From Escherichia coli (GTDB lineage: Bacteria; Pseudomonadota; Gammaproteobacteria; Enterobacterales; Enterobacteriaceae), in NCBI RefSeq assembly GCF_003334355.1, contig NZ_QOWP01000090.1: a stretch of 1,292 nucleotides of DNA, one strand, 5' to 3'. Both the position numbers and the translations under genes were made by a program. Positions 36 through 817 of the stretch are shown here, in pieces (position 1 is the first letter of the stretch; every line of letters starts with the position of its first letter). Under the pieces are notes generated by a model that was not told the origin of the DNA, made no database searches, and saw only the letters and a list, made by a program, of their open reading frames with translations.

Positions 36-202
36 GTTCACAGATAAAACACTCTCCAGGAAACCCGGGGCGGTTCACAGAGACAGAATCAGCGATTCTG
101 GCGCACGCCCGCCGATGTGCGCCAGCGGAGTCGTGCGGCTTCGTGGTGAAAACGCCGGAGGGAGAAAGATATTTTCCCTGCGTGAATATCTCCGGTGAGC
201 CT

Positions 203-208
203 GAGGAG
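203..208 (+). promoter_or_regulatory. Shine-Dalgarno-like GAGGAG, 9 nt upstream of the K ATG at 218
   Basis: GAGGAG at 203-208 with a 9-nt spacer to ATG 218. The site lies inside the upstream in-frame coding sequence (GEPEEYF), so it could also simply be coding sequence. Confidence 0.45.
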
Positions 209-217
209 TATTTCCGG

Positions 218-817
218 ATGTCGCCGGAGGACTGGCTGCGGGCAGAGATGCAGGGTGAGATTGTGGCACTGGTCCACAGTCACCCCGGTGGTCTGCCCTG
301 GCTGAGTGAGGCCGACCGGCGGCTGCAGGTGCAGAGTGATTTGCCGTGGTGGCTGGTCTGCCGGGGGGCGATTCATAAATTCCGCTGTGTGCCGCATCTC
401 ACCGGGCGGCGCTTTGAGCACGGGGTGACGGACTGTTACACGCTGTTCCGGGATGCTTACCATCTGGCGGGAATTGAGATGCCGGATTCTCATCGCGGGG
501 ATGACTGGTGGCGTCACGGTCAGAATCTCTATCTGGATAATCTGGAGGCCACAGGGCTGTATCAGGTGCCGTTGTCAGCGGCGCAGCCGGGCGATGTGCT
601 GCTGTGCTGTTTTGGTTCATCGGTGCCGAATCATGCCGCCATTTACTGCGGCGACGGCGAGCTGTTGCACCATATTCCTGAACAACTGAGCAAACGAGAG
701 AGGTATACAGACAAATGGCAGCGACGCACACACTCCCTCTGGCGTCACCGGGCATGGCACGCATCTGCCTTTACGGGGATTTACAACGATTTGGCCGCCG
801 CATCGACCTTCGTGTGA
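218..817 (+). CDS. K: Phage tail tip assembly protein K: JAB/MPN (JAMM) metalloprotease-like domain fused to an NlpC/P60 (C40) cysteine peptidase-like domain
   Basis: Frame-2 ORF ending at TGA 815-817. The translation MSPEDWLRAEMQGEIVALVHSHPGGLPWLSEADRR... carries the JAMM motif H-S-H-x7-S-x2-D (His 275-277, His 281-283, Ser 305-307, Asp 314-316). The C-terminal half has an NlpC/P60-like triad: Cys in GVTDCYTL (434-436), His in VPNHAAIY (632-634) and His 12 residues later in ELLHH (668-670). ATG 218 gives a 199-codon protein, which matches my recollection of the lambda K annotation. The frame is open upstream to position 23 and the ORF track starts it at GTG 143, so the true N-terminus is uncertain (see findings). 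Confidence 0.92.
   Translation: MSPEDWLRAEMQGEIVALVHSHPGGLPWLSEADRRLQVQSDLPWWLVCRGAIHKFRCVPHLTGRRFEHGVTDCYTLFRDAYHLAGIEMPDSHRGDDWWRHGQNLYLDNLEATGLYQVPLSAAQPGDVLLCCFGSSVPNHAAIYCGDGELLHHIPEQLSKRERYTDKWQRRTHSLWRHRAWHASAFTGIYNDLAAASTFV
696..703 (+). promoter_or_regulatory. Shine-Dalgarno-like GAGAGAGG upstream of the I start codon
   Basis: Purine-rich GAGAGAGG at 696-703, 11 nt before ATG 715. It lies inside the K coding region, consistent with translational coupling in an overlapping gene pair. The spacing is slightly long. Confidence 0.35.

What the first reader, a model, noticed from the sequence alone, without database searches (positions are those of the whole stretch)
128..676. K combines two different peptidase folds (JAMM metalloprotease and NlpC/P60 cysteine peptidase) in one small protein
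Read directly from the translation: the JAMM signature E...HSHPGGLPWLSEAD (Glu 128-130; His 275-277 and 281-283; Ser 305-307; Asp 314-316) is followed by an NlpC/P60-like Cys (434-436), His (632-634) and His (668-670), with the 12-residue His-His spacing seen in Spr-type enzymes. Two intact-looking active sites in a tail assembly protein imply proteolytic or isopeptidase chemistry during tail-tip assembly or infection. The substrates are, as far as I know, not firmly established, which makes this a good target even though the gene family is well known.
Basis: partly seen in the sequence, partly recalled or inferred. Interest (0 to 1): 0.5.

Follow-up and report, generated by a model that had tools for sequence, protein, structure and literature searches.

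The report
IS-interrupted lambda tail protein K
This is the well-known lambda-type tail assembly gene K, whose protein really does join a JAMM metalloprotease domain to an NlpC/P60 cysteine peptidase domain (published since 2003-2006), but in this copy an insertion sequence has cut off the gene's start codon.

Summary
Pfam finds Prok-JAB (E 1.6e-13) and NLPC_P60 (E 7.2e-13). An AlphaFold model (pLDDT 97) matches solved JAMM and MepS/Spr structures. The proposed catalytic residues are among the 14 best-conserved columns in 103 homologs of about 30-60% identity.

The two-domain architecture of lambda K is already published (Ambroggio 2003; Iyer, Burroughs and Aravind 2006, who credit an earlier 2003 NlpC/P60 survey). 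So are the two leading ideas about its function: that K processes the ubiquitin-like N-domain of gpI, and that it counters host Bil ubiquitin-like conjugation. The substrate is still unknown. gpK is absent from virions, and a 2025 paper says its location is unknown.

The first canonical in-frame start (GTG 143) lies downstream of the JAMM glutamate (128-130). This copy is probably inactive, or at best makes a product lacking a complete JAMM site.

Verdict: known gene family, ordinary IS disruption, low interest.

The parts
1..77 (+). Right end of an IS3-family insertion sequence (IS629/IS1203 type). It holds the last codons of the transposase (frame 3, ...ASIGNDDLAA, stop TGA 33-35) and the terminal inverted repeat ending ...GGGGCGGTTCA at 77.
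   Evidence: Bases 1-77 are identical in three annotated E. coli IS3/IS1203 copies whose flanks then diverge. The annotated IS3-family transposase CDS in E. coli 118UI ends at the equivalent of window 35. Thousands of IS copies were hit. All phage and E. coli K matches start at window 77.
78..817 (+). Lambda-type tail tip assembly gene K, frame 2, lacking its first 7 bases (ATGACAG in the nearest intact allele). Stop is TGA 815-817. The open frame runs back to a TGA at 20-22 inside the IS end.
   Evidence: 99.3% nucleotide identity over window 77-1292 (K plus the start of I) to the E. coli region annotated 'C40 family peptidase' then 'tail assembly protein', and 97% to K of phage mEp332. PHROG 30, E 4e-162. 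The intact allele reads CCCATGACAGAGACAGAA where the window reads GGTTCACAGAGACAGAA.
83..367 (+). JAMM/MPN+ (Prok-JAB) metalloprotease domain, K residues 3-97. Motif codons: Glu 128-130, His 275-277, Ser 278-280, His 281-283, Ser 305-307, Asp 314-316.
   Evidence: Pfam PF14464, E 1.6e-13. Profile alignment to 2kks, 2kcq and PfJAMM1 5LDA. Foldseek match to 5LD9/5LDA, TM 0.67, rmsd 2.5-2.7 A. E18, H67, H69 and D80 are each at least 96% conserved.
404..745 (+). NlpC/P60 (MEROPS C40) papain-like cysteine peptidase domain, K residues 110-223. Triad codons: Cys 434-436, His 632-634, His 668-670.
   Evidence: Pfam PF00877, E 7.2e-13, full model length. Profile alignment to Spr/MepS places the DC, nH and lH positions on the Spr triad. 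Foldseek match to 7v6s, 8xup, 2k1g and 9ubf, TM about 0.68. C120, H186 and H198 are each at least 96% conserved.
143..145 (+). First canonical in-frame start codon (GTG) left to the truncated K ORF. It has only a weak GGAG 12 nt upstream and lies downstream of the JAMM Glu. The product would be 224 aa.
   Evidence: A 224-aa form of this kind is called by gene finders on other contigs (P0026).
218..220 (+). Internal ATG, with the sequence GAGGAG 9 nt upstream. It is the start of the 199-aa K gene calls (MSPEDW...). A product from here lacks K residues 1-47, including the JAMM Glu.
   Evidence: Read directly from the sequence. Gene callers report exactly this 199-aa product on the Logan contigs that carry the same junction. 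Other 199-aa K calls exist (P0052).
715..1292 (+). Gene I (tail tip assembly protein I), frame 1, first 192 codons, running off the window. It overlaps the 3' end of K by 103 nt. The ubiquitin-like Lambda_tail_I domain is residues 14-97 (754-1005), ending ...IVPRLAGAKSGG (Gly96; Gly100-Gly101).
   Evidence: Translation. Pfam PF06805, E 1.7e-23. PHROG 32. P92 and G96 are invariant in gpI homologs found next to K homologs of 36-39% identity.

Best explanation
Shown: the window holds the 3' terminus of an IS3-family element (IS629/IS1203 type), then a lambda-type tail tip assembly gene K missing its first 7 bases, then the overlapping start of gene I. K family proteins are about 247 aa. They have an N-terminal JAMM/MPN+ zinc-metalloprotease domain (E18, H67-S-H69, S77, D80) and a C-terminal NlpC/P60 papain-like cysteine peptidase domain (C120, H186, H198). 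Both catalytic sets are under strong purifying selection across the family.

Inferred for the family, about 45% likely: K is a non-virion assembly enzyme that acts on the J-I-L tail-tip initiator. Its JAMM domain works like a deubiquitinase or desampylase. It clips the ubiquitin-like beta-grasp N-domain of gpI at or just after the conserved glycine (G96 to G100-G101), leaving the hydrophobic and plug-forming C-terminal part of gpI in the tip. The NlpC/P60 domain would then either help that processing or cut a second substrate.

Inferred for this copy, about 75% likely: the IS insertion removed the start codon and ribosome site. Full-length K is therefore not made, and the prophage is defective for tail-tip assembly. 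At most a 224-aa (GTG 143) or 199-aa (ATG 218) product is made, with an incomplete JAMM domain and an intact NlpC/P60 domain.
For: Identity and architecture: 97-99% nucleotide identity to annotated K and I genes; both Pfam domains; PHROG 30 and 32; catalytic columns at least 96% conserved in 103 homologs of about 30-60% identity; residue-level alignment to solved JAMM and Spr structures; pLDDT 97.2, pTM 0.91; fold matches to PfJAMM1, CSN5, Rpn11, AMSH and to MepS/Spr.

IS junction. The exact junction is also present in three independent public assemblies at 100% identity, so it is not an artefact.

No canonical start before the Glu.

gpI link: the K-I gene pair and the Ub-like domain with an invariant Gly are kept next to K homologs of 36-39% identity. 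Pfam ends the Ub-like domain at residue 97. Cryo-EM resolves gpI only from residue 101 (PMC11101478) or 135 (PMC10721106). gpK is absent from virions by mass spectrometry (PMC10721106). Cleavage of gpI by the JAB domain was predicted by Iyer et al. (PMC1779556). PfJAMM1, the best structural match, was solved bound to the ubiquitin-like SAMP2 (5LDA).
Against: No experiment shows that K cleaves gpI. The unseen N-domain of gpI in cryo-EM maps could simply be flexible, and Ge and Wang describe it as an unresolved domain rather than an absent one (PMC11101478). The role of the second, NlpC/P60, domain is not explained by the gpI model. I could not obtain model coordinates, so active-site geometry was not measured.

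For this copy, late-operon transcription would still read through the IS. A non-canonical start cannot be excluded: RefSeq annotates ATA at the equivalent of window 44 in E. coli 118UI. The K sequence is otherwise almost undamaged, with 2 nucleotide differences from the nearest intact allele, so the insertion is recent and says little about loss of function.
Confidence: 0.8

Rival explanations
1. The NlpC/P60 domain is the main functional part. It would be a peptidoglycan endopeptidase that opens the cell wall during DNA delivery, carried in or on the tail tip in amounts too small to detect. This is the role proposed for the K-position peptidase g14 of the Rhodobacter gene transfer agent.
For: The fold and triad match true murein endopeptidases (MepS/Spr, CwlO, LytE, Acd33800). 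RcGTA g14 degrades peptidoglycan, and deleting it abolishes tailed particles (PMC7296036). The lambda enzyme that cuts peptidoglycan on entry is still unidentified (PMC11101478). There is a weak hit to TIGR02219 phage_NlpC_fam.
Against: gpK was not detected in lambda virions by mass spectrometry and is not resolved in any tail map (PMC10721106, PMC12617516). The TIGR02219 score is 24 bits against a cut-off of 82, so K is not a member of that family. This reading leaves the equally conserved JAMM site unexplained.
Confidence: 0.25
2. The JAMM domain is an anti-defence deconjugase. It would remove host Bil-type ubiquitin-like proteins that defence systems attach to the central tail fibre gpJ.
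For: Bil systems conjugate a ubiquitin-like protein to the siphophage central tail fibre. [quoted passage not shown] K acts on the J-containing initiator.
Against: By established lambda genetics (my own knowledge, consistent with PMC12617516), K is required for tail assembly in laboratory E. coli K-12, which has no Bil system. Anti-defence therefore cannot be its only role. The conserved pairing with the phage's own Ub-like gpI points to an internal substrate.
Confidence: 0.1
3. This copy of K is still expressed as a near full-length, doubly active protein. Translation would start at a non-canonical codon inside the IS end (for example ATA 44-46, as RefSeq annotates the equivalent ORF in E. 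coli 118UI), adding about 11 IS-encoded residues.
For: The frame is open from 23 to 817. RefSeq calls a 257-aa 'C40 family peptidase' from ATA at the same junction type. The K sequence is nearly identical to an intact allele. The same insertion site occurs in two different K alleles.
Against: No Shine-Dalgarno-like sequence precedes ATA 44, CTG 32, ATT 95 or CTG 98, and ATA is a very poor initiator. The annotation is a homology-driven extension, not evidence of translation. The one non-synonymous change against the nearest intact allele replaces the aromatic residue (F or Y) found there in 54 of 56 close homologs with Ser.
Confidence: 0.1

Closest known systems
Bacteriophage lambda tail tip assembly protein K (gpK / TAPK; RefSeq name 'C40 family peptidase')
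   Same: Same gene. The K and I genes are 97-99% identical in nucleotides to E. coli prophage and lambdoid phage copies. The K-I overlap, the JAB + NlpC/P60 architecture and all catalytic residues are the same.
   Different: This copy has an IS3-family element inserted after base 7, so it lacks the ATG and ribosome site. It also carries F138S at a position that is aromatic (F or Y) in 54 of 56 close homologs and 71 of 107 distant ones.
Archaeal and bacterial stand-alone JAMM/MPN+ enzymes (Pyrococcus furiosus JAMM1, PDB 5LD9/5LDA; DSY2949, PDB 2kks; desampylases)
   Same: Same fold and the same E...HSH-x7-S-xx-D zinc site. PfJAMM1 was solved bound to a ubiquitin-like protein.
   Different: About 21-25% identity. 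K is fused to a second peptidase domain. K scores 28.6 bits against the 130-bit cut-off of the NCBIfam desampylase model, so it is not a member of that equivalog.
E. coli MepS/Spr and other NlpC/P60 murein endopeptidases
   Same: Same papain-like fold, the same Cys-His-His triad and the same 12-residue His-His spacing.
   Different: About 18-21% identity. MepS is a lipoprotein. K is not detected in virions, and no peptidoglycan activity has been shown for it.
RcGTA g14 (Rcc01697), the NlpC/P60 peptidase of the Rhodobacter capsulatus gene transfer agent
   Same: An NlpC/P60 tail peptidase that is required for tailed particles (PMC7296036).
   Different: It is 150 aa with no JAB domain. It has shown peptidoglycan-degrading activity and may be carried inside the tail. 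K does not reach the TIGR02219 family cut-off.
IS629/IS1203 (IS3 family)
   Same: Window 1-77 is identical to the right end of annotated copies, including the transposase C-terminus and the terminal ...TTCA.
   Different: Only 77 bases are in the window. The left end and the target duplication are outside it.

Membership tests
JAMM/MPN+ metalloprotease (Pfam Prok-JAB PF14464) | Significant match to the family profile | tested here: met
   E 1.6e-13, model positions 4-103 of 114, K residues 3-97. The precomputed PF14464 assignment is present on nearly all full-length homologs.
JAMM/MPN+ metalloprotease (Pfam Prok-JAB PF14464) | Motif E-x(n)-H-S/T-H-x7-S-x2-D, with residues aligned to those of solved JAMM enzymes | tested here: met
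   E18, H67-S68-H69, S77 and D80 are read directly from the sequence. They align column for column with 2kks, 2kcq and PfJAMM1 and are 89-97% conserved in 103 homologs (E18, H67, H69 and D80 at least 96%; S77 89%).
JAMM/MPN+ metalloprotease (Pfam Prok-JAB PF14464) | MPN fold | tested here: met
   The predicted model (pLDDT 97.2) matches 5LD9/5LDA at TM 0.67 and rmsd 2.5-2.7 A, and also matches CSN5, Rpn11 and AMSH. This is a prediction, not a solved structure.
JAMM/MPN+ metalloprotease (Pfam Prok-JAB PF14464) | Zinc binding and (iso)peptidase activity | not testable with these tools
   Needs biochemistry.
NlpC/P60 cysteine peptidase (Pfam PF00877, MEROPS C40) | Significant match to the family profile | tested here: met
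   E 7.2e-13, model positions 1-105 of 105, K residues 110-223.
NlpC/P60 cysteine peptidase (Pfam PF00877, MEROPS C40) | Cys-His-His (or polar) triad aligned with Spr/MepS, with Cys at the start of a helix | tested here: met
   D119-C120 aligns with the DC of Spr. H186 and H198 align with the two Spr histidines 12 residues apart. C120 starts helix 120-130 in the model. Each triad residue is at least 96% conserved.
NlpC/P60 cysteine peptidase (Pfam PF00877, MEROPS C40) | Papain-like alpha+beta fold | tested here: met
   Foldseek matches to 7v6s, 8xup, 8xud (MepS), 2k1g (Spr) and 9ubf, with target TM 0.6-0.68.
NlpC/P60 cysteine peptidase (Pfam PF00877, MEROPS C40) | Peptidase or amidase activity on a defined substrate | not testable with these tools
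   No substrate for gpK is reported in the papers read.
Lambda tail tip assembly protein K (TAPK) | Close sequence relationship to annotated K genes and position between L and I-J in a lambdoid tail cluster | tested here: met
   97-99% nucleotide identity to annotated K and I genes. The order H-M-L-K-I-J is seen in mEp332 and two E. coli prophages. In the window itself only K-I is visible, and L is displaced by the IS.
Lambda tail tip assembly protein K (TAPK) | Complete ORF with its own start codon | tested here: not met
   The ATG and the next 4 bases are replaced by the IS end. No ATG, GTG or TTG occurs in frame between the stop at 20-22 and GTG 143. It is a K gene, but an interrupted one.
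NCBIfam TIGR02219 phage_NlpC_fam / NF041370 desampylase | Score above the curated cut-off | tested here: not met
   24.3 bits against 81.9, and 28.6 bits against 130. K is related to both families but is a member of neither.
IS3 family insertion sequence (IS629/IS1203 type) | Identity to annotated copies up to a sharp end, with the transposase C-terminus and a terminal ...CA | tested here: met
   Bases 1-77 are identical in three annotated copies whose flanks then diverge. The transposase CDS ends at window 35.
IS3 family insertion sequence (IS629/IS1203 type) | Left end and 3-bp target-site duplication | not testable with these tools
   The left end is outside the window and the source contig was not found. 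In the analogous E. coli 118UI insertion the duplication is CAC. By analogy it would be CAG here.

The most novel reading that the evidence does not exclude
The IS-truncated gene may still make a JAB-defective, NlpC/P60-only K (199 or 224 aa) that is enough for tail-tip assembly. It would mimic the natural NlpC/P60-only K variants that Iyer et al. noted in some prophages. That would mean the JAMM domain is dispensable for assembly and serves another role, for example removing host Bil-type ubiquitin-like conjugates from gpJ. The identical insertion point in two different K alleles would then be a tolerated or even selected event rather than simple gene death.
Probability: 0.07. Interest if true: 0.45.

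Novelty: already known. Interest (0 to 1): 0.12.

Why it matters
The function of gpK is one of the few remaining blanks in the lambda tail assembly pathway. It is required for tails, absent from virions, and carries two conserved protease sites with no known substrate. That question is real, but it was framed twenty years ago, and this window adds no new handle on it. What the window does add is small. It is an example of IS629/IS1203-type disruption of a prophage tail gene at the very start of K, which probably makes that prophage tail-defective. It also shows how annotation pipelines paper over such junctions with a non-canonical start codon or with 199/224-aa 'NlpC/P60-only' calls.

Tried and rejected
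1. I looked for the source contig and the left IS junction by exact-pattern scans of IMG/VR, GTDB species genomes and JGI metagenomes, and by BLAST against PLSDB plasmids. None holds the junction. Only Logan short-read contigs that break inside the IS were found. Exact look-up of the 224-aa product found nothing.

2. Some IS copies elsewhere aligned out to window 101, which suggested the IS might be longer. An alignment showed identity stops at 77-78 and the rest was chance extension.

3. I looked for an outward promoter or any sigma-70-like site that could drive the truncated K and found none. Two terminator-like hits are within chance expectation.

4. Rfam and repeat scans of the window found nothing meaningful.

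5. I wanted to measure zinc-site and triad geometry in the model, but coordinates are not exposed.

6. A search for gpI homologs returned only close relatives, too similar to test glycine conservation. Neighbours of distant K homologs were used instead.

7. I considered whether K could be the protease that converts gpH to gpH*. By the classical assembly order (my own knowledge), K acts before H joins, and cleavage happens after tube completion. I rejected this as the main hypothesis, but it was not tested.

Full report
**What is in the window.** The 1292 bases hold three features.

- Bases 1-77 are the right end of an IS3-family insertion sequence. Frame 3 reads ...ASIGNDDLAA and stops at 33-35. 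This is the C-terminus of the annotated IS3-family transposase in E. coli 118UI, whose CDS ends at exactly that point. Bases 1-77 are identical in three annotated E. coli copies (annotated 'IS3 family' or 'IS3-like element IS1203 family') whose flanking sequences then diverge completely. The name IS629 is from my own memory of that element's ends. 'IS1203 family' is what the records say.
- From 77/78 to 817, frame 2 carries a lambda-type tail tip assembly gene K.
- From 715 to the window's end, frame 1 carries the first 192 codons of gene I, overlapping K by 103 nt.

Every match of K in 374 phage records and about 4,900 E. coli genomes begins at window 77. The best matches are 99.3% (E. coli 2018-02-2CC) and 97% (phage mEp332). 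In both, the genes are annotated K ('C40 family peptidase') and I, within the order H-M-L-K-I-J.

- HSHPGGLPWLSEAD is an exact instance of H-S/T-H-x7-S-x2-D, the JAMM motif as defined in PMC300881.
- Pfam finds Prok-JAB over K residues 3-97 (E 1.6e-13) and NLPC_P60 over residues 110-223 (E 7.2e-13, full model length).
- A profile built from 105 K homologs aligns the Glu, the HSH, the Ser and the Asp with solved JAMM proteins (2kks, 2kcq, PfJAMM1 5LD9/5LDA).
- The same profile aligns D-C, the first His and the His 12 residues later with the corresponding residues of E. coli Spr/MepS.
- An exhaustive HMMER search of 1.84 billion cluster representatives found 1,688 relatives at E below 1e-10.
- In 103 full-length relatives of roughly 30-60% identity, the columns conserved in at least 95% are E18, G21, N37, H67, H69, D80, R111, D119, C120, D173, H186, H198, S205 and R223. 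Both proposed catalytic sets are therefore among the most constrained positions in the family.
- An AlphaFold2 model built on that alignment is very confident (mean pLDDT 97.2, pTM 0.91).
- Foldseek against the PDB returns two separate sets of matches. For the N-half it returns PfJAMM1, CSN5, Rpn11 and AMSH. For the C-half it returns MepS/Spr and clostridial autolysins (about 0.67-0.68 TM-score, normalised to the target's length, for the best match of each set; rmsd 2.5-3 A). No solved chain was listed that matches both halves, one to each fold.

Model coordinates are not exposed, so I could not measure active-site distances.

- The nearest intact allele reads ...TAAATCCC ATG ACA GAG ACA GAA..., while the window reads ...GGGGCGGTTCA CAG AGA CAG AA. 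The IS therefore sits after base 7 of the K ORF. The ATG, the next four bases and the upstream ribosome site are about 1.3 kb away, on the far side of the element.
- In frame 2 there is a stop at 20-22 and no ATG, GTG or TTG until GTG 143. The non-canonical candidates (CTG 32, ATA 44, ATT 95, CTG 98) have no Shine-Dalgarno-like sequence.
- The JAMM glutamate codon (128-130) therefore precedes any canonical start.
- GTG 143 has only a GGAG 12 nt upstream. ATG 218 has GAGGAG 9 nt upstream and is the start that gene callers use for 199-aa K proteins. Either product would lack the Glu and the first strands of the MPN fold, but would keep the whole NlpC/P60 domain.
- The junction is real. Three independent public short-read assemblies carry window 50-1292 at 100% identity and break inside the IS, as repeats do.
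- Among 5,426 complete E. coli genomes, only strain 118UI has an IS-K junction. It is at the same nucleotide but in a clearly different K allele, flanked by a CAC duplication. RefSeq annotates that ORF from an ATA codon inside the IS end. This is a homology-driven extension, not evidence of translation.
- The window's K differs from the nearest intact allele by only two bases. One is synonymous. The other gives F138S, at a position that is F or Y in 54 of 56 close homologs and in 71 of 107 distant ones. The insertion looks recent, and the single odd substitution is at most a hint of relaxed constraint.

**How K probably works.** The literature frames the question.

- Ambroggio et al. 2003 list lambda K among JAMM proteins of unknown function (PMC300881).
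- Iyer, Burroughs and Aravind 2006, citing Anantharaman and Aravind 2003 for the NlpC/P60 domain, describe TAPK as JAB + NlpC/P60. They identify a ThiS/MoaD-like ubiquitin fold with a conserved C-terminal glycine in gpI, and predict that the JAB domain releases that domain by cleaving at the glycine (PMC1779556).
- Recent cryo-EM work places the C-terminal part of gpI as a plug inside the tip, resolved only from residue 101 (PMC11101478) or 135 (PMC10721106).
- gpK was not found in virions by mass spectrometry (PMC10721106), and a 2025 paper states that 'its location is unknown' (PMC12617516).

My own checks fit the processing model but do not prove it.

- Pfam ends the Lambda_tail_I domain at gpI residue 97.
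- The window's gpI reads ...IVPRLAG96AKSG100G101-VFQ, so the boundary of the resolved structure coincides with the end of the Ub-like domain.
- Genes downstream of K homologs of only 36-39% identity still encode this domain, with P92 and G96 invariant.
- The best structural match of the JAMM half is an enzyme solved in complex with a ubiquitin-like protein (5LDA).

I put about 45% on JAMM-mediated processing of gpI as the main function.

There are three rivals.

- The NlpC/P60 half acts as an entry muralytic enzyme, by analogy with RcGTA g14, which degrades peptidoglycan and is needed for tails (PMC7296036). I give this about 25%. It is weakened by the absence of gpK from virions.
- The JAMM domain is an anti-Bil deconjugase, already suggested by Hor, Wolf and Sorek. 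I give this about 10% as the main role, because K is needed for assembly in hosts without Bil.
- This copy is still translated from a non-canonical start. I give this about 10%.

**Comparison with known families and novelty.** The protein passes every testable criterion for JAMM/MPN+ and for NlpC/P60. It is unambiguously a lambda K gene. It fails the curated cut-offs of the NCBIfam desampylase and phage_NlpC_fam models, so it is a relative of those families, not a member. As a K gene it fails one criterion here: it is not a complete ORF. The two-fold architecture, the isopeptidase hypothesis and the anti-defence speculation are all already published. The IS disruption is an ordinary event in E. 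coli and Shigella-type prophages.

**Verdict.** The finding is already known. This particular copy is an IS-interrupted gene that is probably non-functional. Interest is low.

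Noticed in passing
window 1-77: The window opens inside an IS3-family (IS629/IS1203-type) element. The transposase C-terminus (ASIGNDDLAA, stop 33-35) and the terminal repeat end at ...GGTTCA (77). The 65-aa 'ORF' starting at ATG 1 in frame 1 is an artefact that spans the IS-K junction.
   Followed up: yes
window 74-80; L003 1760-1775 and 3070-3085: E. coli 118UI has the same kind of IS at exactly the same nucleotide of K (after base 7), but in a clearly different K allele, with target duplication CAC. 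It is the only such junction among 5,426 complete E. coli genomes. This could be an insertion hot spot or one old insertion followed by recombination. It is unresolved.
   Followed up: partly
L003 3044-3817 (equivalent to window 44-817): RefSeq/PGAP annotates the IS-truncated K of strain 118UI as an intact 257-aa 'C40 family peptidase' that starts at an ATA codon inside the IS end. This is an annotation that hides a disrupted gene.
   Followed up: yes
window 218-220 and 143-145: Public protein sets contain many 199-aa and 224-aa 'K' proteins (for example P0052, P0057 and P0026, each with hundreds to thousands of members) that start at these internal codons and lack the JAMM glutamate. The N-terminal 47 residues are conserved in relatives of about 30-60% identity, so the 247-aa form is the real gene product. 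The 199-aa forms appear as NlpC/P60-only in precomputed Pfam.
   Followed up: partly
window 488-490 (K residue 138): TCT (Ser) stands where the nearest intact allele has TTT (Phe). The position is F or Y in 54 of 56 close homologs and in 71 of 107 distant ones. This is the only non-synonymous difference from the closest intact K.
   Followed up: yes
window 715-817: K (frame 2) and I (frame 1) overlap by 103 nt if I starts at ATG 715. RefSeq instead starts I at the ATG at 754 (Met14), giving a 64-nt overlap. Several database entries are K-I or L-K fusion proteins (for example P0015, P0036, P0093, P0024). Most are singletons and may be frameshift artefacts, although Iyer et al. mention real I-K fusions.
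   Followed up: no
window 1000-1017 (gpI residues 96-101): The gpI segment AGAKSGG ends the ubiquitin-like domain. G96 is invariant in distant homologs, and G100-G101 lies exactly where the published cryo-EM model of gpI begins (residue 101).
   Followed up: partly
L001 about 2570-2767 (phage mEp332 gene I): Relative to the window, the annotated gene I of mEp332 changes reading frame after ...MLAPKPKTP and ends in unrelated sequence. The window's C-terminal sequence also aligns with the distant gpI homologs, while that of mEp332 does not. This suggests a frameshift or sequencing error in that record.
   Followed up: no
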